Source: an uncultured Gammaproteobacteria bacterium
GTDB taxonomy: Bacteria; Patescibacteriota; Patescibacteriia; UBA1558; 2-01-FULL-52-15
DNA: 64,000 bases
Assembly (NCBI GenBank): GCA_964402565.1
Contig: CAYOCJ010000001.1
Location: 96,079 to 160,078, forward strand
Direction: 5' to 3'
The position numbers and the translations under genes are program-made. Positions 10,607 to 49,408 of this stretch are shown one piece after another. Numbering within the stretch: the first letter of the stretch is position 1; each line of letters opens with the position of its first letter. The notes below the pieces were generated by a model. It had not been told where the DNA came from. It ran no database searches and worked only from the letters and a program-made list of their open reading frames with translations.

Positions 10607-10723
10607 AATAGAGATTTGCATCGAATATATTCGTTGCAGTTCTTTCTTCCCGAGAGACGAACGTTTTTCGGGAAGTGAACATTGAAAATGTTAGTGGAAA
10701 AACTTCGAAAAAAGGAGACCATC

Positions 10724-13879: not shown

Positions 13880-13880
13880 A

Positions 13881-15277: not shown

Positions 15278-16246
15278 ATGCGTCGACATCCGGTTGTGTT
15301 CGCCTGTCCGCAAATGCATCCGATATGGACCGGCATGGCTGTTTCATCAGTCGGAGGTCCGTGCAGCGGAGGTAAGATCCGCTGGGATTCGTTCAACGAC
15401 GGTTGGCCGAACATCAAGATCGATGACACGAGCGTGGTCGAAGGACATGACATCGTTTTTCTCGCGTCATTCGCCAAGCCAGGGGACATTTTCGAGCAAT
15501 GCGGCATTCTGTATGCATTGCCCAGCTATGGCGCTCGGTCGCTTACGGTCATTCTTCCTTTCTTTTCGACCGGCACCATGGATCGTGTCGATCAGGACGG
15601 TGAAATTGCCACAGCAAAAACTCTGGCGCGGATGCTTTCTCAGATTCCGCATTGCCACGGTTCAGGGCCGGCGCAAATCATCATTCTCGATATCCATGCC
15701 CTGCAGGAGCAGTTCTACTTCAGCGACAATGTGCGCGTGAAGCTCATCAGCGCCATGCCGGCGATCCGCGATGCCATCGTTCACAAGCTCGGGCGCGACG
15801 TCAGGATCGCCTTTCCCGACGAAGGAGCGCGGAAGCGTTTCAAGAAATTCTTCGAAGGATTCGAACTCATCACGTGCGACAAGCGGCGCGAAGGCGACAA
15901 GCGCATCGTCACTATCAAAGACGGCGACCCTTCTGGTAAGAACGTTGTCATCGTTGACGATCTGATCATGAGCGGCGGAACAGCTATAGAGTGCGCTGCT
16001 GTTCTGCGTGCCGCAGGAGCATCTACGGTTAGTCTGGCTGCCACACATGCGGTTATGCCAGGGGATGCCCTGTACCGTATGAAGCAGTCGCCTCTCGATC
16101 ACATCTGGGTGACAGATTCATGTCCGCGGATTGCAGAGAATATTACTGTACTCACCGATCAAAAGATCGCACACCCGTTCACGATGATTCCTTTGAGCCA
16201 TCAGTTCAAGCGAGTCGTCTACGACGTCAGTGTGCGCAATCTCTAA
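15278..16246 (+). CDS. ribose-phosphate pyrophosphokinase family protein (PRPP synthetase-like)
   Basis: NVVIVDDLIMSGGTAIECAAVLRAAG is the PRPP-binding loop. The N-terminus is atypical for canonical Prs. Confidence 0.6.
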   Translation: MRRHPVVFACPQMHPIWTGMAVSSVGGPCSGGKIRWDSFNDGWPNIKIDDTSVVEGHDIVFLASFAKPGDIFEQCGILYALPSYGARSLTVILPFFSTGTMDRVDQDGEIATAKTLARMLSQIPHCHGSGPAQIIILDIHALQEQFYFSDNVRVKLISAMPAIRDAIVHKLGRDVRIAFPDEGARKRFKKFFEGFELITCDKRREGDKRIVTIKDGDPSGKNVVIVDDLIMSGGTAIECAAVLRAAGASTVSLAATHAVMPGDALYRMKQSPLDHIWVTDSCPRIAENITVLTDQKIAHPFTMIPLSHQFKRVVYDVSVRNL

Positions 16247-16259
16247 GGAAGGAGGAACT

Positions 16260-32756: not shown

Positions 32757-32831
32757 ATATACCACAGAAAGTGCATTATGTAAATATCTAATGCGTTGAT
32801 TTTTATCATATGCTTTGTTAGAGTAAGGCCT

Positions 32832-35800
32832 ATGCCTGATACGCACTATCAACCAGAACGCTTCGAGAAACATTGGCAGGATGCTTGGGAGAAAGAAGGC
32901 ATTTATCATGCCAAAGATTTTGATGCTCGAGAAAAAAGATATATTTTGGTCGAATATCCCTATCCGTCAGGCGAGGGTCTGCATGTCGGGCACTGTTTGT
33001 CGTATATAGCACAGGACATCGTATCGCGGTACTTGCGCATGAAAGGATATAATGTGCTGTACCCGATCGGCTGGGATGCATTCGGCTTGCCTGCAGAGAA
33101 TTTTGCGATCAAACATAAGATCAAACCGCAAGAAGCGACAAAACGGAACACTGAAAATTATAAGCGGCAGATACAATCGCTCGGGATTTCTTTTGACTGG
33201 TCCCGCGAGCTGAATACGACGGATCCGGCCTACTATAAATGGACTCAATGGATTTTTTTGCAATTATTTAAAGCTGGCCTTGCGGAAAAGAAAGAAGTGC
33301 CGATCAACTGGTGCCCGAAAGACAAGATTGGTTTGGCTTTTGAGGAAGTCGTTAATGGCTGCTGTGAACGTTGTGGTACTCCGGTTGAACGAAGAAATAT
33401 CAAGCAATGGATTTTGAAAATCACGAAATACGCAGACCGGCTGATCGATGACCTGAAGACCGTCAATTTTTTGCCTGCGATAGCGCAGCAGCAGATCAAC
33501 TGGATTGGCAGAAGCGAAGGTGCTGAAATTGATTTTCCTATCTCCTCGCCAGCCGTGACCGAAGTAGTGTTTGCCTCAAATAATAAAGGGAAGGTAGAGC
33601 GCATGAAAAGGCTCTTCAAGGTCGCCGGCCTTGCGGTGAAACTGAGAACGCCAGAGGACATAGGCGTCAAAGATTTCGACGTGGTCGAAGATGCAGGAAC
33701 TCTTGCGGATAATGCTTTAAAGAAAGCTACCGCCTTAGCAAAGCACACCAAGCTGCCGGTACTCGCCGACGATACTGGTTTTTTTGTACAGGGAGCGAAG
33801 ATCGATCCAGTCATGGTCAAACGCAATGCGCTTGACGGAGAAGATGAAAAAAAATTGACGATCGAACAGATCGCCGCGAAGATGCAGGCATATTATCAGG
33901 ATATCGCTGATCACGCAGGTGGTAGAGTCGATGCTGAATGGCGCAATGCGCTGTGCCTGGTAGTCCATGGGGAGAAGCCTCGCATCATCGAAGCGCTGCG
34001 TCCTGTGATCCTCACAAATGAATCGCATGGCACAGTAGACCCGCATCTTCCGCTACGAGGTTTATATATTTCTAAAGCAACGAATAAATACGCCCTGGAA
34101 CAAACAGACGATGAAGAATTACAGGAGCTCGCGCCTATAACGGAAGGGCTCAGACAGATCATCGCTCCTTCGCTCAAGGTGTTCACGACAAGACCAGACA
34201 CCTTATTCGGCGCTACCTATATGGTGCTTTCGCCGGAACATGAGTTTATCGAAAGAAATAAGGATTCGATTAAGAACTTCAAAGAAGTTTTCAAGTATAT
34301 TTCTGTTGCTAAAAATAAATCAGAACGCGAGCGTCAGGAACATAGAGAGAAAACAGGTGTTGAGTTGAAAGGCATCAAGGCAATCAATCCAGCAAATAAA
34401 GAAGAAATTCCAATTTGGGTCGCTGATTATGTACTTTCTGGTTATGGAACCGGTGCTATTATGGCTGTTCCTGCGCATGATGAAAGAGATTTTGAATTTG
34501 CGAAGAAATTTGATTTGCCGATTGTTGATGTGATAAAAGGTGACAATGAATTACATGGAATGATACTCGATGGAGTTTTAATTAATTCTGAACAATTTAA
34601 TGGACTTGAAATCGATGAAGCAAGAAAAAAAATCACTGCATTCGTCGGCGGAGAAATGAAAGTACAATATAAACTCCGCGATTGGATTTTTTCACGCCAG
34701 CATTATTGGGGGGAGCCGATCCCGATCATTCATTGTGATCGATGCGGCGCTGTGCCGGTTCCGGAAAAGAATCTTCCGGTAACACTGCCAGATGTTGAAT
34801 TCTATGAGCCCACTGACACGGGCGAATCGCCATTAGCAAAGATAACTGACTGGGTGAATGTGCAATGCCCATCGTGTCATGGCCCTGCGAAGCGTGAAAC
34901 CGATACCATGCCAACCTGGGCCGGCAGCTCATGGTATTTTTTACGCTATACTGATCCGCATAATGACAAAGCATTTGCAGATAAGAAAAAAATAGGTTAT
35001 TGGCTGCCTATAGATCTCTATAATGGAGGAGCTGAGCATACCACCTTGCACCTACTGTATTCCCGGTTTTGGTACAAGTTTCTCTATGATCAAGGGTATG
35101 TGCCTACTCCCGAACCATATCAGGTTCGCGTTCAGCATGGCATGATATTGGCGCCAGATGGGCAGAAAATGTCCAAGTCGCGGGGGAATGTGATCAATCC
35201 TGATGAGATCGTCTCGGAGTATGGTGCGGATATTTTCAGGCTCTATATGATGTTCATGGGCGAATATGACCAGTATAAAAGCTGGAACGATAAAAATCTG
35301 CAAGGTGTTGCGCGCTTCATGCGGCGTTTCTGGGATTTTGTATCATCCGCGAACATAGGCGCATCAAGTGCAGCAGCTCGCACCGCTGTCCATCGGGCAA
35401 TTCGCGACGTTTCTGCAGATCTTGAACGCCGGTCATTCAATACTGCGGTTAGCAAATTGATGATCTGCCTGAATTCGCTTGAACAAGAAAAAGCACTGAG
35501 CACAGAGGACATGCAAGCACTGCTGAAAATTATTGCGCCATTTGCACCCCATATTTCAGAAGAGCTCTGGCATTCGAAGCTCTCCGAACAAGGAACCATG
35601 CATACTGCGTCCTGGCCTGTATACGACCCGAGCGTTATCAACGAAGAAGGGGTTACGCTTGGCATTCAGATCAATGGCAAGGTGCGAGCAGATATTCTCG
35701 TCACGCCTGACATGAGCGAGGCTGATGTGCGAACTGCGGTTTTAGCGCTGGAGTCGGTGCAAAAATACGTACCAAACCTCGGATCCATAAAAAAATTCAT

Positions 35801-35837
35801 CTATATTGAAAAAAAGATCATCAGTATTGTCGTATAG
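32832..35837 (+). CDS. leuS: leucyl-tRNA synthetase with a ~210-aa Ham1/RdgB-like insertion
   Basis: YPYPSGEGLHVGH is HIGH. QKMSKSRGN is KMSKS. WIGRSEG, VFTTRPDT and GTGAIMAVPAHDERDFEFA match the bacterial CP1 editing domain. The insertion lies between GRSEGAEIDF and VFTTRPDT. Confidence 0.85.
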   Translation: MPDTHYQPERFEKHWQDAWEKEGIYHAKDFDAREKRYILVEYPYPSGEGLHVGHCLSYIAQDIVSRYLRMKGYNVLYPIGWDAFGLPAENFAIKHKIKPQEATKRNTENYKRQIQSLGISFDWSRELNTTDPAYYKWTQWIFLQLFKAGLAEKKEVPINWCPKDKIGLAFEEVVNGCCERCGTPVERRNIKQWILKITKYADRLIDDLKTVNFLPAIAQQQINWIGRSEGAEIDFPISSPAVTEVVFASNNKGKVERMKRLFKVAGLAVKLRTPEDIGVKDFDVVEDAGTLADNALKKATALAKHTKLPVLADDTGFFVQGAKIDPVMVKRNALDGEDEKKLTIEQIAAKMQAYYQDIADHAGGRVDAEWRNALCLVVHGEKPRIIEALRPVILTNESHGTVDPHLPLRGLYISKATNKYALEQTDDEELQELAPITEGLRQIIAPSLKVFTTRPDTLFGATYMVLSPEHEFIERNKDSIKNFKEVFKYISVAKNKSERERQEHREKTGVELKGIKAINPANKEEIPIWVADYVLSGYGTGAIMAVPAHDERDFEFAKKFDLPIVDVIKGDNELHGMILDGVLINSEQFNGLEIDEARKKITAFVGGEMKVQYKLRDWIFSRQHYWGEPIPIIHCDRCGAVPVPEKNLPVTLPDVEFYEPTDTGESPLAKITDWVNVQCPSCHGPAKRETDTMPTWAGSSWYFLRYTDPHNDKAFADKKKIGYWLPIDLYNGGAEHTTLHLLYSRFWYKFLYDQGYVPTPEPYQVRVQHGMILAPDGQKMSKSRGNVINPDEIVSEYGADIFRLYMMFMGEYDQYKSWNDKNLQGVARFMRRFWDFVSSANIGASSAAARTAVHRAIRDVSADLERRSFNTAVSKLMICLNSLEQEKALSTEDMQALLKIIAPFAPHISEELWHSKLSEQGTMHTASWPVYDPSVINEEGVTLGIQINGKVRADILVTPDMSEADVRTAVLALESVQKYVPNLGSIKKFIYIEKKIISIVV

Positions 35838-39382: not shown

Positions 39383-42300
39383 ATGGACCGAAGGCCGAAA
39401 ATTATCTTAACCTTCTTACTCAGCATTGTGCTGGCGAGTACTCTATTCTTTGCCGGCTCTGCGCGTCCGGTTCAAGCAGCCGGCGTCATCACATTCAGCC
39501 CGACAGAGTTCATGCAGACCATTAAAGAATGGATCACGAAGTTGAAAGAGATCGGCTGGAAAAAAGCAGCGATCACGGCTCTCGATAAAGTATCATCCAA
39601 TTTTATAAATAAGATCGCACAGGACGCAGGGAACTATCTGGCAACCGGAGGCAAGGGCCAGAGCGGTCTGCAGCGAAGAGAATCTTTCGGTGCGATTTTG
39701 CGCAAAGACGGCGAAGCCGCGCTCGGTGATTTCGTGCAGGATCTATCATCGGAAACTGCTCTTGATAAACTGGGATTGAATTTGTGCAACCCGACGGCTC
39801 AATTGAAAGCAAATGTAAGTTTACAGCTTCTGGATGCAGGAAATCCGGTGCCATTGGGCAAATCAGGCTGTAATATCCGCGATATTCAGCAGAATTGGCG
39901 TAATTTCGCGGAAGCGAATACCAACGGAAGTGGCTTAACTGCGAATGTCAGCTACGGAAATACGCTCGGTATCAATGGATCGTCGATCACCGGCCCTGGC
40001 TTAGTTGCTGGAAGCTGCCAGGGCACGACGCAAGGAAGCTGTGGATTTGAAAATCCAATAGCCTCGTCATTACCTGATACCGGTGTGTGTGATGTTACGA
40101 CATCAAGCTCGCAGAACCAGTTCGTTTCTTGTAAACAAACAGCAGACTGTATCGCCGCTGGCCTTCTCGGGGCTACCTGTCGCCAGATCGCTCAATTGTG
40201 TTCGTCGGATGCCGAGTGTACTGATGGCAGCAAATGTCTGAAAGCTGGCGGTTCGAGCGGTTCATGCTATAGCGATGCTGATTGCCCGGGCGATACCAAG
40301 TGCGTCGGTGCATCTGGCGCAAACTCAGGCGTACCGTATCTGCAGGTCACGTCGAATTTTTCCGCTGAAGAGAAATTAAAGTTTTTGACCGATCTTGAAA
40401 CGTCGCAATCTGACCTTACTTTTGCGTCGGCTATTCAGGCTAAAGCCGATGAGTTGAAGGCTGCGAAAGAAAAAGTAGCGACCATGGATGCAACGGCCTG
40501 TGGCAACTATAAAGACGTAGGTTCCAAGATCACAGATGATTATATTCACAAGAATTGTGCCGAGATCGAAGGTTTGAAAGCAAAAACAGATGCGCCGTCG
40601 TCACAAGACGAAGTAGCTCAGCTGAAAAGCGAAGGCGAGAATGCTTTCTGGTTGAATGCTGCAAAGATCTTCGGCCGATCGCTGATTTCCGGTTTGCTGA
40701 AGAAATATATCCGGGCAGGGTCATTCTCACTTGCTGAAGTCGGCCAGCGCACGGACGTGAATGCGGTCCGTGAAAATATCATCCAGCAGCTGCGCGGAGG
40801 AGTGACGTCTCCATTGAATGCGCTCAATGTGGTGAACAATGTCGCTGAGGCAAAAAAACCGTCTCTCGATAAGGTCGATAATTATGATTATTTATCGCTC
40901 TTCACCCAATGTCCTGATGATCGCAATCTCGTTGAGCTCGACAACTGCACCTTGGATGACAATTTCGCTTCAGCGATCCGCGACAAAAAAACACTTGCTG
41001 AAGCTTTGGCTGACGGAGTTATCCGCGGGGATTTGCCGCTCATCTCAAATCTGAATACCAGCTTGAATAGCGATCCATTCTGCGTGCGGAACGGGTATTG
41101 CCACAGCAATATTGTCCGCCTGAGGAAATATCGCATCATACCGATCGGCTGGGAAATCGCAGCTTCATTAAGCCCGATCGATGCTCCGGTGACATTGCAG
41201 CAGGTCGTTGATTGTTTCGAAAATGGCGGCGCTTGTAAATTTGATGCTGCATCCAACGTGTACTATCACCTCATAGACCCGAACTGGGTTTTGAAAGCGC
41301 CGGAAACAATTTGTAAAGCTGAAGGGTTTGGTCCGAAGCTTATCAGCACCGAAACGGCTGAACGCCAGCAATACTGTGCAGACGGCATCTCCTGCCTCGC
41401 AGAAGATGATGCGGGCAATTGCGTCGGCGGATATGGGTATTGCACCAAGGAAAATAATATTTGGCGCTTCAACGGCGAGCAATGCCCGGCACAATTTGCA
41501 AGCTGCACGGTCTTTACCTCGACTGAGGATCATAAATCTGTCTCCTATCTGGGCAATTCTGTCGATACCTGCGATGCATCTCAGAACGGCTGTAAATGGT
41601 ATTCGAAGAGCCAGGACAATGTCGGCACCGAATCGAATCCGAACTTAGTCTGGAACCCGAATGATCGTATCTATTTCAATAAGACAGTTGCAAAATGCGA
41701 TGCCGATCAGGTCGGTTGCACTGAATTCGTTTCATTGCTGACGCCGGGAGTCAACTTGATCACCAACGGCGATTTCGACTACTTCACGCCGAGCTCTACG
41801 ACGAATCTCGCAGATCCGAATTGGATGAATGATAATCTTGTCGATAAGTTCGATGGCTGGCAAGGTTCCGCAGACACCTATACGACCAGAGACAATGCGT
41901 ATTTCGGATCGGATGGATTGTCTGCAAAGAATGGAGGCCGCGTATCGACGAATGCTATCACTGGAATTCTCGCGGACAAGACATTTACGCTTTCGTGGTT
42001 TGCAAAATCCGGAACGGCGAACAACTGTGTCACGGATGTCGCTATCTCTTCTGCGACCACCGCTGCACAGAGCACGCCGGTGACCTATACGAAAGACTGG
42101 AAGCGCTTCGAGCTGACCAAGACATTCGATGTGAATACGCTGGATACATCGGTGAATATTTCGTTCTCAACCGCCTGTGATGATGTGCCTGTTGCGACCG
42201 CAGATGAAATATATATTGATGGAGTGAAGTTTGAATTGAACAGCCGTTCTTCGGGATTCACGCAATATGCTGAGAATGGCAAGGTGTATCTGAAATCGGG

Positions 42301-45300
42301 CAGCCGCTGCACGAAGGATGACGTCGGATGCGATCTCTACACTGCAACCGAGAGCGGCTTTAAAGTGCCAGGCAAGATCGACTCCGATGACCGCTGTCCG
42401 GCAGAGTGCGTTGGCTATCAGAGCTATCTTGAGTTGCCGAGCCAATTCGATGTGCTGGAGAAAATTCCGCTGCCTGCACCTGCGCCGCGCCCGGTCGATT
42501 TCATCGCGAAGACCGCAGCCGCATGTCCCGCGACCGAGGTGAATTGCGAAGAATTTACCAATGAAGAAGAAGTTGCTCAGGGCGGCGAAGGCAAGCATTA
42601 TTTCAGCTTCGTCAGGCAATGCGTGGAAGATGCGCTCGGCAGCACCTACTATACCCTGGAAGGGAGCGATACCGCAGGCTATCAGGTACGAACGTGGAGG
42701 CTCCTTGCTTCTGACCTGCCATCCGGCCAGCCATGCACCAATGTCGATATTGGCGCGAAGAATTGTATTGATGCAAGCAGTACGCCTGCAACCTGTACGG
42801 CAGCGGATATGGCGACCGATCTGAATTGCAGAGAATTTTTCGATATCAGCGGTATCCCGCATTATATCCAGCAAGATCATGTCATCGCCTCAAGCGCTGA
42901 TTGCCAGGCATTCAGGAGAACGTCCACTGGCACCACGTTCTATGCGCTTGGCAAAGACAGCCGTGCCTGCAGTGCTCAGAATAATAATTGCAGGGAGTAT
43001 CGGGGCAACCAGTCGAATAATCTGCGGACGTTATTCACGGATTATTTCGAACAGGGCAATACCGGCGAATGGAATACCACGAATGCGTCTCTCTCTACGG
43101 AGGCAGTCAGCACCGGCGGGCATTCGATCGTGAACAAAAATGCTTCTGATGTACTGACGACGACGCTGACTCGCAACGCTACCAATAAGACCTATAAGAT
43201 CGAAGCCGGACGTGAGATGTATATGGAATTCTGGATGAAGAATATCAATCCCGTACAGGTTGTCTTCCATGCTGACAGCACCTATTCATTCCCGACAACA
43301 ACCATGGCAGTACCGAATGACTGGCAGCAGTACCGCGTCGGCCCGGTCTATATCGGAAATGCAATTGATGCAGCTCCGTCGCTGACGATCATCCCGTTCG
43401 GAGGAAATCCGCTTGCCCCGGTGTACTTCGACAATATTATTTTGAGAGAATCGCTGTCGAATGTCTTCATTATAAAGGACAGCTGGAAGACTCCGGCAAG
43501 CTGCGATCAGCCGATACCAGGCGCTATGCTCGGCTGCCAAGAATATACCAATAAAGCAGGCACTGCCTATGACCTCCGTTCGTTCTCAAAATTATGTTCG
43601 AATGAAGTTATCGGCTGCCAGGCATTTATCAATACGCAAAATTCAACGAATCCGTTCCAAAAGATCTATAATGCGAATGATAAATCTGAAGTGATCGTGC
43701 CCGAAGATAATATTAGTTATCTCGTGTATAGCGAGCAGAACCGATGCTATAGCCAGAGCAAGGGCTGCAGCGCCTTAGGAGCTCCGCAGCTGAATTTGGA
43801 TCTGCCCGAAGATCATCCGAAGTATATCGACGGGTATAAAGTACTGACGCTCATTAATAATCCTGACACCTATGATACGACGCTTTGTACGGATGCAGGT
43901 CTTTTCTGCGAAGAATACACTGACAGCAAGGCTCAGACCGTCTATTTCAAGAATCCGCATGACCGAATCTGCGAGTATAAAGATAATATTAATATAAGCG
44001 GCCGTATCCAGTCGGGCTGGTTCCAGAAGAAGAGCCTCGAGCCTGGCCAGACGCCGGTCGGCTGCTCTGATGATGGTGTTCTGCCAATAGAAGATAAGGA
44101 TTTCAGGATTTATAAGAATGTTGACTATGATTATACCGGTTGGGCCGGAGAGTGCTCCGCGCAGTATGACCTCTGTACCGAATTCAAAGATCCGCTGGAT
44201 ACCCAAGGCGACAATGCGGTGACGAATGCTGACTTCGGCTTGGTCGATGCTTCGGGACAGCCATTGAACTGGAAAGACCATATCTGGAGCTGGCCATACT
44301 CAAGTACGCCGCCTGCGAGCTGGCTGCAAGCAAGCCCAGGCCAGCAGATAGCTATTTCCCGTCTGCAGCCATATGGATCAATATCATTCGGACAAGACTT
44401 CTCCAATGTCGACGGCACCGATGTATTTGCCTATAGCGTCGATGTGAATGTCCAGCGCATGACGCATGGCCTCAATCCTCAGATTGGCGTGAATTTGTCA
44501 TGCCACTTTGACTCACCACGCGATATAGATTTTTGCAGCACTTCTATACGAACTACGACGGAAAGTTGTACCAGTACGACAGATTGTAAGGCGGGCGGCG
44601 CCTGCTCAGCAGGCTTCTGCCAATACCCGAATGGAAATTATAATTATACCAAGCCATGCGGACCGAATAATTCCTGTGCCGCCGGCACTATGTGTTATAC
44701 CTTTTCATGGAGCGCATGCGAGGGACCTGGCCCTGACGGCAATTTCAACAACAGAAATGACGATGACTATACCAATATGCAGTGTGCAGGCGCAACAGGA
44801 ACAGATGACACGGCATGTGTGAACCGATTTGGCGCAGGATACCGATGTCTGAGCTGGCCGTATAAGAAGGACCTTGATCGGGACTATGTATTGGATTATA
44901 CGACCTATCTTTCGAATCCGTATCTGTATGACAAATGGCAGAATGTTCGCCGTGTCGTAGATCTGGGAGCTGACAGCGGACAGAGGAAGGTCTACGAATG
45001 CACACTCTGGTTGAATCTTTCAAACTGGTATGGATATAATCAACAAAGCAGGAATGATTACAATAATCCGGGAACAGGTGCTCCGCCAGGCCCGCGAGCG
45101 TGCGCGCCTGTCTCTACCTATGACTATGAAATGTCATGCGGCGACACCTACTGCACCATACCAGGACCAGACGGCATACCAGGAAATGCAGATGATACTG
45201 CTACGACAGTTCGTTGTACAACCAGTACCTCTACAGTTGCCCCGACAGTGGCAAATGGTGATGCAGGCTGTCGCTTGCCCGTGGGATCCGGTGGAACGGG

Positions 45301-48300
45301 GAATGCTACCGCGATATGCGGAAGCAATGTCGCATACCCGGCTGAGGTGTGGTGGAAGAACCCGCTCTTCAAGAAAGCAAAGAGTTATTTCTATCTGAAC
45401 AATGAAGAAGTAGATACCCAGAGCTGCAATGGCCAGGTGGGCAAGAAAGACGGCTGCCTGCTCTTCCTCGATATGAGCAAGCGCGATGTGAAGAGCTATG
45501 ATGCATTCTCGACCTATGACAAGAGCGCCGGCAATGGAGGAGGACTGGTGCAGCCGGTTACCTGCGTCGCAGGATCTACGACATGCAGTAATGACAGCAA
45601 TACGATCGTGAAGGTTCGCAGGGATCGCCAATGCGCAGAGTGGCTTGCCTGCAGATCTGCGACTGAGGTCTTCGATTCAGCGAACAATTCTTTCAGGCAG
45701 ATCTGCGATCAGGTCGGCACGTGCAATGAGTATAAGCCTGGCAGCGACATCATGAATTGTGCGAACTGGGTTGCGCCTTCGAAACAGAGATTGGAATATG
45801 GCTACTATGTGAATAGGTCGATCGATTTCGATGCGGCTGATTATTCCGGCTATTCTATCTATAATGACTATCAAGTGGGCACCTTGTCCTTGGTTGACGT
45901 CAGTACTCTTGGATCTCCGCCGACCGGACCTGATGGCAGAAACCCGGATTACCGCTTGGTACGCGTCATTGATACCTGTGATAGTTCGCAGCCGCCATAT
46001 GAATCGCCATGCGGCCCTGTCGATCCGTTGAATCCGGGAGAAAAACTTGGACGATGTTTTGCTACGAATAAGTGCGTTGTGGGCATTGACGGCAGCCGAT
46101 TCAGCAGAGATTCGGATTTCGTGATCAAGCGCTCGACCCGGGCATGGGCTGAGAAAGATTCTCCATTCCCGTATTCGGTCGTCGATAAAGACCAGGGCGA
46201 TACGCGCAAAGTGAAATTTGGATTCCAGGATGCGACCATTTGCGATACGAAGAATGCATCGTGCGAAGACCGGTACTATAAGTTCCAGTACGGATCCACC
46301 AACAGCGTTACTAAATACTTTTCAGCCGACGTGCAGCTGTCAGGGGGCGCCATCCCTGCATGCGTTTGCCAGGGCGGCGAATATGATAACCGCGAGTGCG
46401 GTACCAAGGATACTGGCGGCGCTTTGGTCTGTTCGAATAATATAACAAGGCATTGTACGGTAGACACTGATTGTCCGAGCGTTGTCGTCGCAGGTGTGCC
46501 GACCACTGGCGCATGTAAGGACGGTCCGGACGGCAAAATGTCTCCTGAAGAGCGCTGTCCAGACAATGGCTCGCCGCTGTATCTGCGAAAGTCAGACAGC
46601 TTCCTGAACTGGCCTGGTTTCTGCCTTGAACCTGATAATCGCGCCAACATCAACGGATCACAGACTGAACGCGCCTGTCTCAACTGGCTGCCAGTCGATA
46701 ATGCACCGGTCGGTTATGACTTTTTCAACCAAAATAGAGAAGCAGGGTATTCATATAAAGCACCCGCCTACTACTGTCTGGATGTAGGATTGTATGAGTT
46801 GCGCGTCAACCACTATTTCGGATGCAAGTGCGATTACCAGTGTAATAATAGCCTGAACCCCGATCCGACCGCGTATGCTATCAGACAAGGCGCGCAATGT
46901 GGATGCAAGTTCAATCCATTAGATCCAAATCCTCACACAAACTGTATTCTTGGATTTAATTTCGGTTTGCTGGGCTGCGGTTGGAGGCATCCTTTCGATA
47001 AAAAGAAAGATTGTTATGCAGTGCCGATACCGAATGGACCAGGATTGTATAGCTACAATAACAACACGATTGCCGGCTGGGAAAATCCGCCTGATCCGTC
47101 ATGCAGAGTATTAGCTCAGACGGTTGATGAGCGCGGTGAGAACGCTGCCATGACGAACCTATTCTGGTCAAACTATAACGGCGGCTCTGGATACGCCATC
47201 GGCGATATACCGATTGGAACGAGTACTGCGAAACTTGGGTATAAACTTGATAAGGATGATAAGCCTTTCGGCTCAGCTGTGCCGAATGGCCTTGGCTTCG
47301 TAACTGATAAGCTGCAGATACAAAAGCCGGGTACTATCCCGAGAGCAGGCAGTCCCTATGCTTGCTCCAGCAGCGTGCAGTCATGCAGTTATTTCGATCC
47401 GGCGAACTTGTCTTCGTTCGCGGTACAAGGCTGGACAACGCCGTATGTGGGCTGGGGCAATGAACCATATACGATCGGCGTCAGGCGCCTGAAAGAGATC
47501 TATAGAAAGATATTCAATCTCTATACCTGGCAGGAAGGAAATCTATGCGAGGATATGGTCTGCGGCCGCCCGAATGACCCGGATAGCCCGAACGTAAGCG
47601 AGAACGGAGGCTATTATGGCGGCCAGCCATGCAGCGCAGGAGACACTAATTCCTGCAATGAAAGCGCCGGAGCCACCTCCTGCGTTCATATTCAGGATAA
47701 ATGCGTAAACTCAGTATTCAATGACACTGATCCCGCTTCTGAACTGTATCAGGGCTGCGGCGTCTGTACGCGCGTCGGGTTTATCAGTGAATCAGCGCCA
47801 CAGAAGAGATGCATGAGCAATTGGGGCGACACGAATGGTGATAATGTGAACGATACAAGCGGACTCTTTGCAACTGCCGCTGCCTGCAATGCTGCTGATC
47901 TTGATCCTGGCGCTGCGACCGTGACCTGTTCTATCGCCTATCCGGCAGGCGGTTGCGCCCCTGACCCGAATGATCCGAGCGGCAGATTCCGCTGTTTCAG
48001 CGAGCCATTCGCAGGAAATGATTGCAAGATCCCGTTGAACCCGAATTATCTAAGTTGCGAAGGCACTCCGGCAACCTGCCATTATGGCTCAGGCGCTACC
48101 AAGGAAGACACCGGCGTCCCTTGCAATGGGGTAAGCGATTGTACCGGCACCATCACCTCAGATCCAGATTCACTGCAAGGCCTGCTCGATAATATTAATT
48201 CACAATCCTATTGCGCAGACATTAACCATAAAGAAGGAAGTTACGACTACGAAGCTGGCGATTTCTGCGTCGGCGAGCCATTCTCAGTTCGCATACAATC

Positions 48301-49408
48301 GACGAATCCGGAGCCATATATTTTCAGCGGGACGCCGGTTCATTGCGAGGTCGGCACGACGTATACGAATGCGCTTGGATACACCTTGCAAGGATATGGG
48401 CCGACCGCCGGGAACGAAGCTGACAATATTTGTACGAGCCATGGCCGGTGTATACCATCCTATCAGGTAAAGTATGCGCCGCCACCGGTAAGCACCGGCA
48501 AGGTCATGTGTGAACGGCAGCCGGATAAGGGTTATTTACCGCTCTGCAACCCGGATGTGGAGGATTGTACTGGTAAGAAGCCAGACCAGATCGTCGAGGC
48601 CCCTGCCTTGCCATTGGATCTGACGCCGTCATCGAGTTTGAATGGACTGACCTCGGTGCCAGGCTATGCGCCGTATATTATTCCGGCAAAATGTGATGAC
48701 ACCGGCACGAAGTGCAAGCAGTCCACCCCGATCTATCAATTCCATGTACCGAATGGCCCGCTTGGAGCCCCGAATGACAATGGCTTTAGCGTCAATAATG
48801 TTCTTGGCAGTGAACCGTCGCCGCTCAATGTGGTGACTGGTTTCCAGAATATGCTCGCGTCATTGAAGTTTTACATGGCAGCAGATAAGAACCATATTCC
48901 GATCAGATATGTTGATCTTGACTGGGGCGATGGGCTGTCCCAGACGCGCGTCGGCTACTATAAGAATCATCTCGAACAATGTGATCCGGCAACATTCGGA
49001 CCGCTCACGCCGCCTGCGCCTCAGACATCGCTTGATTATGCAGGTTCAGACCAGGCATGCCGCATCGCATTCAGGAATTATTTGCACGTCTATGCCTATG
49101 ATATCGCCTATACGTGCGGCCGATGTGATAATAATGCAGCTCGCTCATGCGGACGCGATGATGACTGTGCTACCGGCGGCAAATGTACGACGCGAGGCAT
49201 CGATGGAGCTGTGTCATGCTACAGGCCGCGCGTTATGGTCCAGGATAACTGGGGCTGGTGTACCAATGGCGTGTATGGAACGACCGGGGTAGGCTGTAAA
49301 GACACGCAGGTGGTCAATAGTGGCCAGCCGCCATCACCTCAAAGCGATGCGGACGGGTATGTCCAGTTCAAAGGATTGATCATGGTCTACAAGGATCCCA
49401 AGCCATAA
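39383..49408 (+). CDS. giant secreted cysteine-rich protein (3341 aa)
   Basis: Uninterrupted 10,026-nt ORF. The N-terminal signal peptide is LTFLLSIVLASTLFFAGSARPVQAAG. Hundreds of Cys residues occur in CxxxxC and GSC contexts, with no TM helix beyond the signal peptide. It is translationally coupled to both neighbours. Confidence 0.6.
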   Translation: MDRRPKIILTFLLSIVLASTLFFAGSARPVQAAGVITFSPTEFMQTIKEWITKLKEIGWKKAAITALDKVSSNFINKIAQDAGNYLATGGKGQSGLQRRESFGAILRKDGEAALGDFVQDLSSETALDKLGLNLCNPTAQLKANVSLQLLDAGNPVPLGKSGCNIRDIQQNWRNFAEANTNGSGLTANVSYGNTLGINGSSITGPGLVAGSCQGTTQGSCGFENPIASSLPDTGVCDVTTSSSQNQFVSCKQTADCIAAGLLGATCRQIAQLCSSDAECTDGSKCLKAGGSSGSCYSDADCPGDTKCVGASGANSGVPYLQVTSNFSAEEKLKFLTDLETSQSDLTFASAIQAKADELKAAKEKVATMDATACGNYKDVGSKITDDYIHKNCAEIEGLKAKTDAPSSQDEVAQLKSEGENAFWLNAAKIFGRSLISGLLKKYIRAGSFSLAEVGQRTDVNAVRENIIQQLRGGVTSPLNALNVVNNVAEAKKPSLDKVDNYDYLSLFTQCPDDRNLVELDNCTLDDNFASAIRDKKTLAEALADGVIRGDLPLISNLNTSLNSDPFCVRNGYCHSNIVRLRKYRIIPIGWEIAASLSPIDAPVTLQQVVDCFENGGACKFDAASNVYYHLIDPNWVLKAPETICKAEGFGPKLISTETAERQQYCADGISCLAEDDAGNCVGGYGYCTKENNIWRFNGEQCPAQFASCTVFTSTEDHKSVSYLGNSVDTCDASQNGCKWYSKSQDNVGTESNPNLVWNPNDRIYFNKTVAKCDADQVGCTEFVSLLTPGVNLITNGDFDYFTPSSTTNLADPNWMNDNLVDKFDGWQGSADTYTTRDNAYFGSDGLSAKNGGRVSTNAITGILADKTFTLSWFAKSGTANNCVTDVAISSATTAAQSTPVTYTKDWKRFELTKTFDVNTLDTSVNISFSTACDDVPVATADEIYIDGVKFELNSRSSGFTQYAENGKVYLKSGSRCTKDDVGCDLYTATESGFKVPGKIDSDDRCPAECVGYQSYLELPSQFDVLEKIPLPAPAPRPVDFIAKTAAACPATEVNCEEFTNEEEVAQGGEGKHYFSFVRQCVEDALGSTYYTLEGSDTAGYQVRTWRLLASDLPSGQPCTNVDIGAKNCIDASSTPATCTAADMATDLNCREFFDISGIPHYIQQDHVIASSADCQAFRRTSTGTTFYALGKDSRACSAQNNNCREYRGNQSNNLRTLFTDYFEQGNTGEWNTTNASLSTEAVSTGGHSIVNKNASDVLTTTLTRNATNKTYKIEAGREMYMEFWMKNINPVQVVFHADSTYSFPTTTMAVPNDWQQYRVGPVYIGNAIDAAPSLTIIPFGGNPLAPVYFDNIILRESLSNVFIIKDSWKTPASCDQPIPGAMLGCQEYTNKAGTAYDLRSFSKLCSNEVIGCQAFINTQNSTNPFQKIYNANDKSEVIVPEDNISYLVYSEQNRCYSQSKGCSALGAPQLNLDLPEDHPKYIDGYKVLTLINNPDTYDTTLCTDAGLFCEEYTDSKAQTVYFKNPHDRICEYKDNINISGRIQSGWFQKKSLEPGQTPVGCSDDGVLPIEDKDFRIYKNVDYDYTGWAGECSAQYDLCTEFKDPLDTQGDNAVTNADFGLVDASGQPLNWKDHIWSWPYSSTPPASWLQASPGQQIAISRLQPYGSISFGQDFSNVDGTDVFAYSVDVNVQRMTHGLNPQIGVNLSCHFDSPRDIDFCSTSIRTTTESCTSTTDCKAGGACSAGFCQYPNGNYNYTKPCGPNNSCAAGTMCYTFSWSACEGPGPDGNFNNRNDDDYTNMQCAGATGTDDTACVNRFGAGYRCLSWPYKKDLDRDYVLDYTTYLSNPYLYDKWQNVRRVVDLGADSGQRKVYECTLWLNLSNWYGYNQQSRNDYNNPGTGAPPGPRACAPVSTYDYEMSCGDTYCTIPGPDGIPGNADDTATTVRCTTSTSTVAPTVANGDAGCRLPVGSGGTGNATAICGSNVAYPAEVWWKNPLFKKAKSYFYLNNEEVDTQSCNGQVGKKDGCLLFLDMSKRDVKSYDAFSTYDKSAGNGGGLVQPVTCVAGSTTCSNDSNTIVKVRRDRQCAEWLACRSATEVFDSANNSFRQICDQVGTCNEYKPGSDIMNCANWVAPSKQRLEYGYYVNRSIDFDAADYSGYSIYNDYQVGTLSLVDVSTLGSPPTGPDGRNPDYRLVRVIDTCDSSQPPYESPCGPVDPLNPGEKLGRCFATNKCVVGIDGSRFSRDSDFVIKRSTRAWAEKDSPFPYSVVDKDQGDTRKVKFGFQDATICDTKNASCEDRYYKFQYGSTNSVTKYFSADVQLSGGAIPACVCQGGEYDNRECGTKDTGGALVCSNNITRHCTVDTDCPSVVVAGVPTTGACKDGPDGKMSPEERCPDNGSPLYLRKSDSFLNWPGFCLEPDNRANINGSQTERACLNWLPVDNAPVGYDFFNQNREAGYSYKAPAYYCLDVGLYELRVNHYFGCKCDYQCNNSLNPDPTAYAIRQGAQCGCKFNPLDPNPHTNCILGFNFGLLGCGWRHPFDKKKDCYAVPIPNGPGLYSYNNNTIAGWENPPDPSCRVLAQTVDERGENAAMTNLFWSNYNGGSGYAIGDIPIGTSTAKLGYKLDKDDKPFGSAVPNGLGFVTDKLQIQKPGTIPRAGSPYACSSSVQSCSYFDPANLSSFAVQGWTTPYVGWGNEPYTIGVRRLKEIYRKIFNLYTWQEGNLCEDMVCGRPNDPDSPNVSENGGYYGGQPCSAGDTNSCNESAGATSCVHIQDKCVNSVFNDTDPASELYQGCGVCTRVGFISESAPQKRCMSNWGDTNGDNVNDTSGLFATAAACNAADLDPGAATVTCSIAYPAGGCAPDPNDPSGRFRCFSEPFAGNDCKIPLNPNYLSCEGTPATCHYGSGATKEDTGVPCNGVSDCTGTITSDPDSLQGLLDNINSQSYCADINHKEGSYDYEAGDFCVGEPFSVRIQSTNPEPYIFSGTPVHCEVGTTYTNALGYTLQGYGPTAGNEADNICTSHGRCIPSYQVKYAPPPVSTGKVMCERQPDKGYLPLCNPDVEDCTGKKPDQIVEAPALPLDLTPSSSLNGLTSVPGYAPYIIPAKCDDTGTKCKQSTPIYQFHVPNGPLGAPNDNGFSVNNVLGSEPSPLNVVTGFQNMLASLKFYMAADKNHIPIRYVDLDWGDGLSQTRVGYYKNHLEQCDPATFGPLTPPAPQTSLDYAGSDQACRIAFRNYLHVYAYDIAYTCGRCDNNAARSCGRDDDCATGGKCTTRGIDGAVSCYRPRVMVQDNWGWCTNGVYGTTGVGCKDTQVVNSGQPPSPQSDADGYVQFKGLIMVYKDPKP

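What the first reader, a model, noticed from the sequence alone, without database searches (positions are those of the whole stretch)
33549..34176. Ham1/RdgB-like (ITPase-fold) module inserted into leucyl-tRNA synthetase just before the CP1 editing domain
Between the conserved WIGRSEGAEIDF and VFTTRPDT segments, E. coli-type LeuRS has about 12 residues. Here ~210 aa are inserted. They contain VVFASNNKGKVERM (the GNxGKxxE motif of Ham1/RdgB), VEDAGTLADNALKKATALAKHTKLPVLADDTGFFV (the ExxGxTFxxNAxxKA...ADDSGL motif) and later GTVDP (FGYDP-like). The C-terminal SHR motif is not evident, so the module may be catalytically degenerate. The editing-domain landmarks TTRPDT and AVPAHDERD keep their normal spacing, so the module is additional and not a replacement. 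I know of no described LeuRS with a house-cleaning NTP-pyrophosphatase insertion.
Basis: partly seen in the sequence, partly recalled or inferred. Interest (0 to 1): 0.7.

Follow-up and report, generated by a model that had tools for sequence, protein, structure and literature searches.

The report
Ham1-like pyrophosphatase domain nested inside LeuRS
The leucyl-tRNA synthetase of this ultra-small (Patescibacteria/CPR) bacterium carries a complete, apparently active nucleotide-cleaning (Ham1/ITPase-fold) enzyme inside a surface loop of its editing domain, an architecture that is common in this group in the databases but that I could not find described in the literature.

Summary
The uninterrupted LeuRS gene (32832-35837, 1001 aa) has about 209 extra residues (239-447; nt 33546-34172) between WIGRSEGAEIDF and VFTTRPDT. 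They match Pfam Ham1p_like (59 bits, cut-off 22.5). The AlphaFold model (pLDDT 92) matches RdgB/HAM1 structures over its full length (TM 0.70-0.79).

The module does not look degenerate. The RdgB catalytic equivalents K13, E41, K53 and D69 are invariant in 56 LeuRS-embedded copies. The SHR/FGYDP specificity pocket is replaced by other conserved motifs. The domain therefore belongs to an SHR-less Ham1-like clade, probably with a different substrate.

The closest syntenic LeuRS orthologue (82-84% identical) lacks the insert exactly, so LeuRS does not need it. 44 of the 120 best LeuRS relatives carry it at the same site. Their LeuRS proteins also hold NUDIX, alpha/beta-hydrolase, HAD or nucleotidyltransferase domains in other loops. 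Related Ham1-like domains sit inside TopA, AlaRS, Cbf5 and a thioredoxin-reductase-like protein.

Free-standing archaeal (DPANN) copies nest within the LeuRS-embedded clade (97/100 bootstraps) and lie directly upstream of an archaeal-type leuS.

Best reading: an accessory nucleotide pyrophosphatase tethered to, or co-expressed with, LeuRS. I found no literature on it. Substrate and 3D docking remain untested.

The parts
32832..35837 (+). leuS: bacterial-type leucyl-tRNA synthetase, 1001 aa plus TAG stop, with a nested Ham1-like domain
   Evidence: ORF. TIGR00396 967.6 bits against a 548.4 cut-off. 100% identical to P0166. HIGH-type motif HVGH at 51-54 and KMSKS at 779-783.
32832..33545 (+). 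LeuRS residues 1-238: first half of the catalytic Rossmann fold, the zinc-binding (CxxC...CxxC) module, and the first strand of the CP1 hairpin (WIGRSEGAEIDF, 224-235)
   Evidence: Pfam tRNA-synt_1 matches residues 15-223. The AF2 model has a strand at 227-237.
33546..34172 (+). Nested Ham1/ITPase-fold domain (LeuRS residues 239-447) of the SHR-less CPR/DPANN clade, 'type A'
   Evidence: PF01725 at 59.1 bits. Exactly absent from the 82-84% identical syntenic orthologue. AF2 pLDDT 91.9. Foldseek TM 0.70-0.79 to 3tqu, 1k7k and 2q16 over about 209 columns.
33573..33593 (+). Motif ASNNKGK (residues 248-254): N251 and K254 correspond to RdgB N10 and K13 (triphosphate binding)
   Evidence: HMM alignment to E. 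coli RdgB. K254 is conserved in 56/56 and N251 in 55/56 embedded copies.
33681..33728 (+). Motif VVEDAGTLADNALKKA (residues 284-299): E286, N294 and K298 correspond to RdgB E41, N49 and K53
   Evidence: All three are conserved in 56/56 copies.
33762..33782 (+). Motif LADDTGF (residues 311-317): D313 and D314 correspond to RdgB D68 and D69
   Evidence: D314 is conserved in 56/56 copies and D313 in only 28/56. The RdgB-ITP complex sequence (2q16) carries Ala at the D69 position.
33816..34151 (+). Clade-specific C-lobe motifs that replace the canonical specificity pocket: VKRNAL (329-334), GGRVDAEWR (363-371), HGTVDPHLPLRGLYISKATNKYALE (399-423), DEELQELAPITEGL (427-440). There is no FGYDP and no SHR.
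   Evidence: Alignments. R390 and P407 are conserved in 56/56, Y412 in 55/56, K419 in 54/56 and R331 in 53/56 copies.
34173..34730 (+). Remainder of the CP1 editing domain (about residues 448-633), with the T-rich VFTTRPDT (450-457) and AVPAHDERD (545-553)
   Evidence: Pfam tRNA-synt_1_2 matches 447-603, profile positions 22-182. T452, T453, R454, D456, T457, H549, D550, R552 and D553 are nearly invariant in 52 LeuRS sequences.
34731..35834 (+). Second half of the catalytic domain (KMSKS 779-783), the anticodon-binding domain (about 851-962) and the C-terminal domain
   Evidence: Pfam Anticodon_1 matches 851-962. TIGR00396 stretch 447-1001 matches model positions 239-843.

Best explanation
Residues 239-447 of this Patescibacteria LeuRS are a complete, independently folding Ham1/ITPase-fold domain. 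It sits at the tip of the first beta-hairpin of the CP1 editing domain, and the rest of LeuRS is intact (HIGH, KMSKS, editing residues, anticodon-binding domain). The domain belongs to a clade of Ham1-like proteins that also exists as free-standing genes of about 205-215 aa, in Patescibacteria and DPANN wherever the source genome is named. This clade keeps the N-lobe machinery that binds Mg2+ and the triphosphate and cleaves the alpha-beta bond. Its base-specificity pocket has been rebuilt. I therefore infer that it is an active nucleoside-triphosphate pyrophosphohydrolase whose preferred substrate is not ITP/XTP. It would act as a nucleotide-pool 'house-cleaning' enzyme in an organism that presumably lives on salvaged nucleotides. 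LeuRS serves as a permissive, constitutively expressed carrier that keeps the enzyme co-expressed with, and physically tethered to, an ATP-consuming translation enzyme. LeuRS catalysis does not depend on the module.

Shown: the anatomy, the fold, residue conservation, dispensability for LeuRS, recurrence, and the link to leuS in archaea. Inferred: enzymatic activity, the substrate class, and the reason for tethering.
For: Identity and fold:
- Pfam Ham1p_like scores 59 bits against a 22.5 cut-off.
- The AF2 model has pLDDT 91.9.
- Foldseek matches HAM1/RdgB/ITPA structures over about 209 columns, TM 0.70-0.79.

Catalytic residues:
- Equivalents of RdgB K13, E41, N49, K53 and D69 are invariant in 56/56 LeuRS-embedded copies, and N10 in 55/56.
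- Those copies are as little as 32-39% identical to the window's domain.
- New clade-specific residues are also invariant or nearly so: R390, P407, Y412, K419.
- Among type-A pairs the insert is more conserved than the LeuRS core in 87% of comparisons.

Accessory status:
- The syntenic orthologue in L042 (M23/LysM peptidase, LeuRS, Sua5, MFS, RsmA) is 82-84% identical and lacks exactly residues 239-447.

Autonomy:
- Close relatives are free-standing 204-213 aa proteins.
- Those relatives have no conserved neighbours in CPR genomes.
- The same clade is nested at other LeuRS sites and in TopA, AlaRS, Cbf5 and a TrxR-like protein. It is also fused to NUDIX, HAD and Ser-hydrolase domains.
- LeuRS loops in relatives host other small hydrolases and a nucleotidyltransferase.

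LeuRS intact:
- TIGR00396 scores 967 bits, and the HIGH, KMSKS, TTRPDT and HDERD motifs are present.
- The full-length model has pLDDT 88.9.
Against: - No activity or substrate has been measured.
- The SHR motif is absent, and its Arg178 is reported as essential for ITPase activity (PMC5075207). By analogy the domain could be inactive on any NTP.
- D313 (RdgB D68) is conserved in only half of the copies.
- A pure 'carrier' model does not explain two observations. LeuRS site 1 is by far the commonest location (55-56 of the inserts mapped; 17 of about 22 host proteins). And archaeal free-standing descendants of the embedded clade sit directly upstream of an unrelated, archaeal-type leuS.
- Canonical ITPases are homodimers with the specificity pocket in the dimerisation lobe. 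How that works inside a monomeric LeuRS is unknown.
- I could not read model coordinates, so the orientation of the domain relative to the LeuRS active sites is unknown.
Confidence: 0.6

Rival explanations
1. The domain is functionally coupled to LeuRS chemistry and is more than a passenger. It could remove a nucleotide that interferes with or arises from aminoacylation, such as non-canonical ATP analogues at the point of use, or Ap4A/Ap3A-type by-products formed from Leu-AMP plus ATP. Alternatively its nucleotide state could modulate the CP1 swing between the aminoacylation and editing conformations.
For: - LeuRS is the dominant host and the first CP1 hairpin the dominant site.
- DPANN stand-alone copies nest inside the LeuRS-embedded clade (97/100 bootstraps).
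- Those copies lie 22-25 nt upstream of an archaeal-type leuS in two archaea whose LeuRS proteins are only 44% identical.
- NUDIX domains, a family that includes Ap4A hydrolases (general knowledge), are the commonest second insert in the same LeuRS proteins.
- CP1 must swing during catalysis and its neck region matters for activity (PMC4138327).
Against: - The closest orthologue works without the insert.
- Most free-standing family members are not linked to leuS.
- Related domains sit in TopA, AlaRS, Cbf5 and a TrxR-like protein, and at three different LeuRS sites.
- The archaeal adjacency lies within a syntenic block and so counts as one evolutionary event.
- No biochemical precedent is known to me.
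Confidence: 0.25
2. The domain is a pseudo-enzyme. It would be an ITPase-fold scaffold that has lost hydrolysis and now acts as a nucleotide- or RNA-binding, dimerisation or stabilising module of LeuRS.
For: - The SHR and FGYDP signatures are absent.
- Arg178 of SHR is reported as essential for ITPase activity.
- NCBIfam RdgB/HAM1 equivalog models score far below their cut-offs (40.6 against 145; 56.3 against 234).
- D68-equivalent conservation is only 50%.
Against: - Equivalents of K13, E41, N49, K53 and D69 are invariant in 56/56 divergent copies. That pattern is what selection on catalysis would produce.
- The same motif set is kept in free-standing proteins with no partner domain.
- The C-lobe is re-patterned with new invariant residues. 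It has not decayed.
Confidence: 0.07
3. The insert is a selfish or neutral mobile module. It would spread among LeuRS genes, for example by recombination across the highly conserved flanks NWIGRSEGAEIDF and VFTTRPDTLFGATY, and persist because precise loss is rare, with no benefit to the cell.
For: - Presence and absence differ between 82-84% identical syntenic orthologues.
- Host and insert similarities are only weakly correlated (r = 0.44 overall, 0.31 within type A).
- LeuRS proteins with closer cores carry a different insert type at 35-39% identity.
- Embedded and free forms are interleaved in the domain tree.
- The domain occurs in several hosts and at several sites.
Against: - Purifying selection on catalytic residues is strong, and the domain is more conserved than the LeuRS core.
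- There are no intein, endonuclease or transposase motifs in the gene.
- No flanking direct or inverted repeats bracket the insert beyond short chance matches.
- Composition is not clearly foreign: GC3 0.51 against 0.50 and 0.44, GC 0.50 against 0.45.
- No clade members were found on viral contigs.
Confidence: 0.07
4. The insert is an artefact: a chimeric assembly, or a frame-fused neighbouring gene.
For: None beyond the unusual architecture. The exact-product look-up did not find the gene.
Against: - The ORF is uninterrupted and both junctions are in frame.
- The identical 1001-aa protein exists on a 633-kb NCBI contig.
- 56 homologous architectures come from independent assemblies, and nine GTDB species representatives have continuous ORFs through the insert.
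Confidence: 0.01

Closest known systems
RdgB / HAM1 / ITPA non-canonical purine NTP pyrophosphatases (Pfam PF01725; PDB 1k7k, 2q16, 3tqu, 2j4e)
   Same: - The same fold over the whole 209 residues (TM 0.70-0.79).
- The same N-lobe motif set: N10, K13, E41, N49, K53 and D69 equivalents.
- A Pfam match above the gathering score.
   Different: - No SHR signature and no FGYDP motif. The C-lobe carries different conserved motifs: KRNAL, GGxVDAEWR, PLRxLYxSKATxK, EExxELxPI.
- Sequence profiles align only the first 85-125 positions.
- NCBIfam equivalog cut-offs are not reached.
- It is embedded in another enzyme, whereas the canonical proteins are free homodimers.
Free-standing SHR-less Ham1-like proteins of Patescibacteria and DPANN (for example P0002, Pacearchaeota HYZ97_00295; P0004, Pacebacteria KAS07_03770)
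   Same: - 40-59% identical over the whole domain with the same motifs.
- The DPANN copies fall inside the LeuRS-embedded type-A clade (98/100 and 97/100 bootstraps).
   Different: - They are separate genes of 204-213 aa.
- The DPANN copies precede an archaeal-type leuS.
- The CPR copies have no conserved neighbours.
- None has been characterised, and sources name them 'hypothetical protein'.
Bacterial-type LeuRS with the CP1 editing domain (TIGR00396; E. coli and T. thermophilus LeuRS)
   Same: All defining domains and motifs are present with normal spacing outside the insert.
   Different: A 209-aa enzyme domain replaces the roughly 10-residue loop of the first CP1 hairpin. Relatives carry additional nested domains at up to four other sites.
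HAM1 domains in potyvirid polyproteins (cassava brown streak viruses), reported as partners of the viral RdRp (PMC8893687, listed; only title and abstract seen)
   Same: A Ham1-family pyrophosphatase is physically linked, by being made in one polypeptide, to a nucleotide-consuming enzyme.
   Different: The viral HAM1 is a canonical Maf/Ham1-like protein released from a polyprotein. It is not a domain nested in a loop of a host enzyme, and the partner is a polymerase and not an aminoacyl-tRNA synthetase.
Inteins in housekeeping genes
   Same: An extra, autonomously folding module interrupts an essential protein, and its distribution among orthologues is patchy.
   Different: There are no intein splicing or homing-endonuclease motifs in this gene. 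Junction residues are not intein-like. The insertion is in a variable surface loop and not in a conserved active-site motif. One TopA relative (P0046) carries both a true intein and a NUDIX plus Ham1-like insert at different places.

Membership tests
Ham1/ITPase superfamily (Pfam PF01725) | Significant match to the family profile above the curated gathering score | tested here: met
   59.1 bits against 22.5, E 7e-16, profile positions 1-125 of 186
Ham1/ITPase superfamily (Pfam PF01725) | ITPase alpha/beta fold over the whole domain | tested here: met
   AF2 pLDDT 91.9. Foldseek E 2e-13, TM 0.70-0.79 to 3tqu, 1k7k and 2q16 over about 209 aligned columns.
Ham1/ITPase superfamily (Pfam PF01725) | N-lobe phosphate/Mg2+/catalytic residues (RdgB N10, K13, E41, K53, D68, D69) | tested here: met
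   N251, K254, E286, K298, D313 and D314 are present. All except D313 are conserved in 55-56 of 56 embedded copies.
RdgB/HAM1/ITPA ITP-XTP pyrophosphatase (functional equivalog, TIGR00042 / NF011397) | Score above the NCBIfam equivalog cut-off | tested here: not met
   TIGR00042 scores 40.6 against 145.35. NF011397 scores 56.3 against 234.
RdgB/HAM1/ITPA ITP-XTP pyrophosphatase (functional equivalog, TIGR00042 / NF011397) | SHR signature (ITPA 176-178) forming the hypoxanthine/xanthine specificity pocket; Arg178 essential (PMC5075207) | tested here: not met
   The aligned segment reads 'EELQELAPI'. There is no S-H-R in the insert or in any type-A or type-B copy.
RdgB/HAM1/ITPA ITP-XTP pyrophosphatase (functional equivalog, TIGR00042 / NF011397) | FGYDP motif | tested here: not met
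   It aligns with 'LPLRG' (405-409). P407 and R409 are conserved in its place.
RdgB/HAM1/ITPA ITP-XTP pyrophosphatase (functional equivalog, TIGR00042 / NF011397) | Hydrolysis of (d)ITP/XTP to the monophosphate plus PPi; homodimer | not testable with these tools
   This needs enzyme assays and oligomer analysis.
Bacterial-type leucyl-tRNA synthetase (TIGR00396) | Equivalog profile score above the cut-off | tested here: met
   967.6 bits against 548.4, in two stretches around the insert
Bacterial-type leucyl-tRNA synthetase (TIGR00396) | Class I signatures HIGH and KMSKS | tested here: met
   HVGH at 51-54 and KMSKS at 779-783, nearly invariant in 52 aligned LeuRS sequences
Bacterial-type leucyl-tRNA synthetase (TIGR00396) | CP1 editing domain with the T-rich region and the conserved Asp of the HD(E/Q)RD motif | tested here: met
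   PF13603 at 194.6 bits. TTRPDT at 452-457 and AHDERD at 548-553.
Intein / homing-type mobile insertion | Hint/intein splicing blocks, a nucleophile at the junctions, an optional homing endonuclease | tested here: not met
   No intein or endonuclease Pfam hit in the LeuRS. The junctions read 'DFPISSPAV...' and '...IIAPSLKVF'. The whole insert is accounted for by the Ham1 fold.
Transposon-like DNA insertion | Target-site duplication or terminal inverted repeats at the borders | tested here: not met
   Only short (11-18 nt) scattered repeats. None brackets 33546 and 34172 as a pair of terminal repeats.
Anti-phage defence proteins (PADLOC-DB 2.0) | Match to a defence-system model | tested here: not met
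   No hit at E <= 0.01 for the insert or for P0002. The library predates the KomBC structures that Foldseek listed.

The most novel reading that the evidence does not exclude
Patescibacteria and DPANN may have a previously unrecognised pool of small nucleotide-handling enzyme domains: SHR-less Ham1-like, NUDIX, HAD, PF06821 alpha/beta-hydrolase and nucleotidyltransferase. These would be repeatedly gained, lost and exchanged as in-frame cassettes in surface loops of essential housekeeping enzymes, mainly LeuRS but also TopA, AlaRS, Cbf5 and a TrxR-like protein. The Ham1-like cassette would have a real functional partnership with LeuRS. That partnership would be strong enough that, after crossing into archaea as a free gene, it was kept as an operon partner of a non-homologous, archaeal-type leuS.
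Probability: 0.3. Interest if true: 0.8.

Novelty: new variant of a known kind. Interest (0 to 1): 0.66.

Why it matters
Appended aaRS domains are a long-standing theme, described mostly in eukaryotes. To my knowledge a complete second enzyme nested in the CP1 editing domain of a bacterial LeuRS has not been described.

If the domain is active, it defines a new specificity class within the Ham1/ITPase superfamily. That class sits in organisms presumed (general knowledge, not tested here) to depend on salvaged, possibly damaged or modified nucleotides.

The system offers a natural with/without pair of orthologues at 82-84% identity. That pair can test whether nucleotide sanitation is coupled to tRNA charging.

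The wider pattern, with several hydrolase families nested at five LeuRS sites and in other housekeeping proteins, bears on how genome-reduced symbionts package accessory functions. It also bears on which LeuRS loops tolerate large insertions, which is useful for protein engineering.

There is a practical point as well. At least one such LeuRS is named 'non-canonical purine NTP pyrophosphatase' in NCBI, so automatic annotation and essential-gene censuses of CPR genomes can miscall leuS.

Tried and rejected
1. A first word-indexed protein search with the insert alone returned no LeuRS at all. That briefly suggested a singleton or an artefact. The genome scan, the exhaustive representative search and the full-length LeuRS search overturned this.
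2. The exact-product contig look-up for the window LeuRS found nothing, although the protein is in the collection. I could not obtain the source record name.
3. Intein or transposon origin is rejected: no motifs and no bracketing repeats.
4. Foreign composition: the difference is only modest (GC 0.50 against 0.45; GC3 0.51 against 0.50 and 0.44). This is not informative.
5. Conserved neighbourhood of free-standing CPR copies: none. The SpoU methylase seen upstream in two related contigs did not generalise.
6. Phage carriage: only four weak N-terminal matches of canonical type in IMG/VR.
7. Defence-system membership: no PADLOC hit.
8. Test of vertical against lateral inheritance by identity regression: inconclusive. 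Type-A insert identity is flat at about 0.61 regardless of core identity, and the window is not an outlier.
9. The first bootstrap attempt timed out. It was redone with a faster distance routine.
10. The AFDB fold library was unavailable.
12. Eight literature searches, seven of them aimed at this architecture, found no description of it.
Full report
**1. The observation**

The window holds one uninterrupted ORF, 32796..35837 on the + strand. From the ATG at 32832 it encodes a 1001-aa protein identical to database protein P0166, which lies on a 633-kb NCBI contig.

The protein is a bacterial-type LeuRS. TIGR00396 scores 967.6 bits against a 548.4 cut-off, and the match is split into two stretches. 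Pfam finds the class I catalytic domain, the LeuRS editing domain (PF13603, residues 447-603, profile positions 22-182) and the anticodon-binding domain. It also finds PF01725 Ham1p_like at residues 245-379.

**2. Exact boundaries, from a natural control**

The closest LeuRS in the databases is P0167 (843 aa). Its locus L042 has the same gene order as the window: M23/LysM peptidase, LeuRS, Sua5/YrdC, MFS transporter, RsmA. The two LeuRS proteins are 82% identical over 797 aligned residues, and 84% over a 775-column core.

The orthologue lacks exactly window residues 239-447. In their place it has the short loop 'AVSGSKEKIT'. The insert is therefore nt 33546-34172, which is 204-209 codons. It sits between the two strands of the first hairpin of the editing domain. 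The AF2 model places those strands at 227-237 and 447-452, and the insert falls between Pfam editing-domain positions of about 21 and 22.

This orthologue also shows that LeuRS in this lineage functions without the module.

**3. Whether the feature is real and recurrent**

A degenerate-pattern scan of GTDB species representatives returned 33 loci. In nine of them the homologous domain lies in continuous bacterial-type LeuRS ORFs at the same position.

An exhaustive HMM search of 1.84 billion cluster representatives gave 32 hits below 1e-30. Many of these lie at about residues 240-460 of proteins 980-1350 aa long, and those proteins are LeuRS.

Among the 120 best relatives of the window LeuRS, 44 carry the domain at this site. 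One is UniProt A0A1F6BTG6 from Ca. Jorgensenbacteria. Another, a 1165-aa LeuRS, is named 'non-canonical purine NTP pyrophosphatase' in NCBI.

An assembly artefact is excluded. Where hits carry names, the names place the window in Patescibacteria/CPR.

**4. What the module is**

With a 17-sequence alignment, AlphaFold2 gives a confident model: pLDDT 91.9, pTM 0.85. Foldseek aligns it over about 209 columns with HAM1 of Coxiella (3tqu), E. coli RdgB (1k7k, 2pyu, 2q16), S. aureus Ham1 and human ITPA. TM-scores are 0.70-0.79 for the best matches, and Maf proteins score far lower. The whole insert is therefore one complete ITPase-fold domain.

Sequence profiles recognise only its first 85-125 positions. 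The HMM alignment to RdgB gives these equivalences:

| Window LeuRS | E. coli RdgB |
|---|---|
| N251 | N10 |
| K254 | K13 |
| E286 | E41 |
| N294 | N49 |
| K298 | K53 |
| D313 / D314 | D68 / D69 |

The 2q16 ITP complex sequence carries Ala at the D69 position.

Conservation across 56 LeuRS-embedded copies, some only 32-39% identical to the window's domain, is as follows:

| Residue | Conserved in |
|---|---|
| K254, E286, N294, K298, D314 | 56/56 |
| N251 | 55/56 |
| D313 | 28/56 |

The C-terminal lobe is different from canonical Ham1. FGYDP is replaced by 'LPLRG' and SHR by 'EELxELxPI'. New positions are invariant or nearly so: R390 and P407 56/56, Y412 55/56, K419 54/56, R331 53/56.

In human ITPA the SHR signature forms the specificity pocket in the dimerisation lobe, while the catalytic site lies in the N-terminal lobe. 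Arg178 is essential for ITPase activity (PMC5075207).

I infer that the hydrolytic half is under strong selection and the base-recognition half has been rebuilt. The domain is probably an active NTP pyrophosphatase with a substrate other than ITP/XTP. It fails the NCBIfam RdgB/HAM1 equivalog cut-offs, so I file it in the Ham1 superfamily and not as an ITPase.

**5. Relatives outside LeuRS**

The nearest stand-alone relatives are 204-213 aa proteins. They fall into two groups.

- *CPR group.* These are about 40% identical to the window's domain. They are scattered in Patescibacteria genomes and have no conserved neighbours.
- *DPANN group.* These are 55-60% identical and come from a Pacearchaeota and a Nanoarchaeota MAG plus one unnamed metagenome contig.
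  - In all three loci (L001/L018, L005, L015) the gene ends 22-25 nt upstream of an archaeal-type leuS. NF008957 scores 984 bits and TIGR00395 scores 832 bits.
  - The contigs are archaeal, carrying eIF-1A, S17e and tRNA intron endonuclease.
  - The archaeal LeuRS proteins of L001 and L015 are only 44% identical. The loci are syntenic over eight genes, so the adjacency counts as one ancestral event.

In a bootstrapped NJ tree, the window-type ('type A') embedded domains plus the DPANN genes form a clade in 98/100 replicates. The DPANN genes fall inside the embedded set in 97/100. The simplest reading is that a LeuRS-nested domain crossed into archaea as a free gene and has been kept next to a non-homologous LeuRS gene.

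**6. A wider pattern**

I mapped inserts of 60 aa or more in 133 related LeuRS sequences onto window coordinates. This gave five insertion sites (domain labels).

| Site | Window residue | Nested domains found |
|---|---|---|
| 1 | about 238 | Ham1-like (55-56), PF06821 Ser-hydrolase (5), NUDIX (+Ham1-like) (2-3) |
| 2 | about 560-580, inside CP1 | NUDIX (25, plus about 10 partial), HAD, nucleotidyltransferase, Ser-hydrolase |
| 3 | about 630-638 | Ser-hydrolase (13), HAD (2), an unknown 130-aa module (3) |
| 4 | about 700-720 | nucleotidyltransferase |
| 5 | about 920 | Ham1-like |

Some LeuRS proteins reach 1360-1610 aa with three nested enzymes.

Lower-scoring members of the same Ham1-like group are nested in other proteins:
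- topoisomerase I (two clusters, one also with NUDIX and a true intein);
- AlaRS (together with guanylate kinase and a Ser-hydrolase);
- a Cbf5-type pseudouridine synthase;
- a thioredoxin-reductase-like flavoprotein.

They also occur as two-domain fusions with NUDIX, HAD, Ser-hydrolase or a cytidylyltransferase. LeuRS is the main host, accounting for 17 of about 22 large host proteins among the listed representatives.

**7. Evolutionary dynamics**

Presence and absence differ between orthologues that are 82-84% identical. The next-closest LeuRS cores (66-70% identical) have no insert, a Ser-hydrolase, or a 'type B' Ham1-like domain only 37% identical to the window's. The window's insert is 56-65% identical to inserts in LeuRS proteins whose cores are only 46-59% identical.

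Core identity and insert identity correlate weakly: r = 0.44 overall and 0.31 within type A. In 87% of type-A pairs the insert is more conserved than the core.

This pattern fits repeated gain, loss or exchange. It also fits strong constraint combined with many losses. My identity-based test cannot separate the two.

I found no DNA-level mobility signature. There are no intein or endonuclease domains, no bracketing repeats, only a modest composition shift, and no clade members on viral contigs.

**8. Mechanism and weights**

*Shown:*
- A complete Ham1-fold domain sits in a loop of an intact LeuRS.
- The catalytic residues are invariant.
- The specificity pocket has been replaced.
- The module is dispensable for LeuRS.
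- The architecture recurs widely.
- There is an archaeal operon link to leuS.

*Inferred:* that the domain hydrolyses a nucleotide triphosphate-like substrate, and that it serves nucleotide-pool sanitation.

My preferred model (0.6) is an accessory house-cleaning enzyme that uses LeuRS as a permissive, constitutively expressed carrier. The main rival (0.25) is real coupling to LeuRS chemistry. That rival gains weight from the strong preference for LeuRS and from the archaeal leuS adjacency. The insert-free orthologue and the multiple hosts and sites count against it. The pseudo-enzyme (0.07), selfish-module (0.07) and artefact (0.01) readings are less likely.

The full-length AF2 model is good (pLDDT 88.9, pTM 0.75). 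From hairpin topology alone I infer that the module emerges at the hairpin tip. That tip is the end opposite the T-rich segment (452-457) that follows the second strand.

**9. Novelty**

Eight full-text searches, seven of them aimed at this architecture, found no paper describing Ham1, NUDIX or other enzyme domains nested in LeuRS, or an SHR-less Ham1 clade in CPR/DPANN. The sequences themselves are public and automatically annotated.

I rate it a new variant of known kinds: a Ham1-superfamily domain and LeuRS in an undescribed nested architecture, with a divergent clade of unknown specificity. The interest lies less in this single gene than in the pattern it points to.

Noticed in passing
P0027, P0028, P0037, P0038, P0040, P0042, P0044, P0072, P0127, P0128 and many of P0169-P0232 (LeuRS relatives); sites given in window LeuRS numbering: Patescibacteria LeuRS proteins often carry other nested enzymes. 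NUDIX lies inside CP1 (about residue 560-580). PF06821 Ser-hydrolase or HAD follows CP1 (about 630-638). A nucleotidyltransferase lies at about 700-720. A second Ham1-like site lies at about 920. Some proteins reach 1360-1610 aa.
   Followed up: partly
P0046, P0062 (TopA); P0085 (AlaRS); P0065 (Cbf5/TruB with PUA); P0075 (Pyr_redox_2 protein): Related SHR-less Ham1-like domains are nested in topoisomerase I, alanyl-tRNA synthetase (together with guanylate kinase and a Ser-hydrolase), a Cbf5-type pseudouridine synthase and a thioredoxin-reductase-like protein. P0046 also has NUDIX and a LAGLIDADG intein.
   Followed up: partly
L001 6001-9373; L005 964-1996; L015 5983-9316: In DPANN archaea the stand-alone Ham1-like gene ends 22-25 nt before an archaeal-type leuS. 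The surrounding block (eIF-1A, tRNA intron endonuclease, S17e and others) is syntenic between two archaea whose LeuRS proteins are 44% identical.
   Followed up: yes
L042 8001-10532 (orthologue P0167), residues about 359-422: The insert-free orthologue has about 46 extra residues inside CP1, at the site where other LeuRS proteins carry NUDIX or Ser-hydrolase domains. This could be a remnant or a small lineage-specific loop.
   Followed up: no
P0205, P0212, P0217 (LeuRS), insert after window residue about 638: A 130-aa insert of unknown family ('KEVVESTPHQLNFR(D/E)EKIWKK(L/I)ISGEKT(V/I)ETRALNPEEPERYF...') was not matched by my NUDIX, Ser-hydrolase, HAD or NTase labels.
   Followed up: no
window 2452-2569 (+) and 2972-3919 (+): A SAM riboswitch (RF00162, 64.5 bits) lies upstream of a shortened S-adenosylmethionine synthetase gene (315 aa, all three MetK domains). 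A tRNA gene lies at 2025-2095.
   Followed up: partly
window 10682-12109, 13638-15125, 16230-18287 (+): This looks like an NAD salvage cluster. One ORF has a NAD-kinase domain that starts only at residue 242 of 475, so the N-terminal 240 aa are unassigned, or the TTG start is over-called. The cluster also contains NAPRTase and a glutamine-dependent NAD synthase.
   Followed up: no
window 39383-49408 (+): A giant ORF of 3341 aa lies downstream of rsmA. The syntenic locus L042 has a 3283-aa counterpart with no Pfam hit on record.
   Followed up: no
window 59212-61131 (+): A TraG/VirB4-like P-loop ATPase (PF19044) may belong to a type IV secretion or conjugation-like system.
   Followed up: no
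fold search of model m4175475fc289: Besides ITPases, Foldseek lists chains of the 'KomBC complex' (9v0g_A, 8zsg_E; released 2025) as Ham1-fold matches (TM 0.60-0.74). PADLOC 2.0 has no matching model.
   Followed up: no
P0190 (HVM77207.1, 1165 aa): NCBI names a LeuRS with nested Ham1-like and NUDIX domains 'non-canonical purine NTP pyrophosphatase'. P0243 is named 'hypothetical protein'. Nested domains can therefore cause leuS to be misnamed in CPR genomes.
   Followed up: no
The word-indexed search with the insert alone missed every LeuRS-embedded copy, including the window's own protein. The exact-product contig look-up also failed for a protein that is in the collection. Negative results from those two tools should be read with care.
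   Followed up: yes
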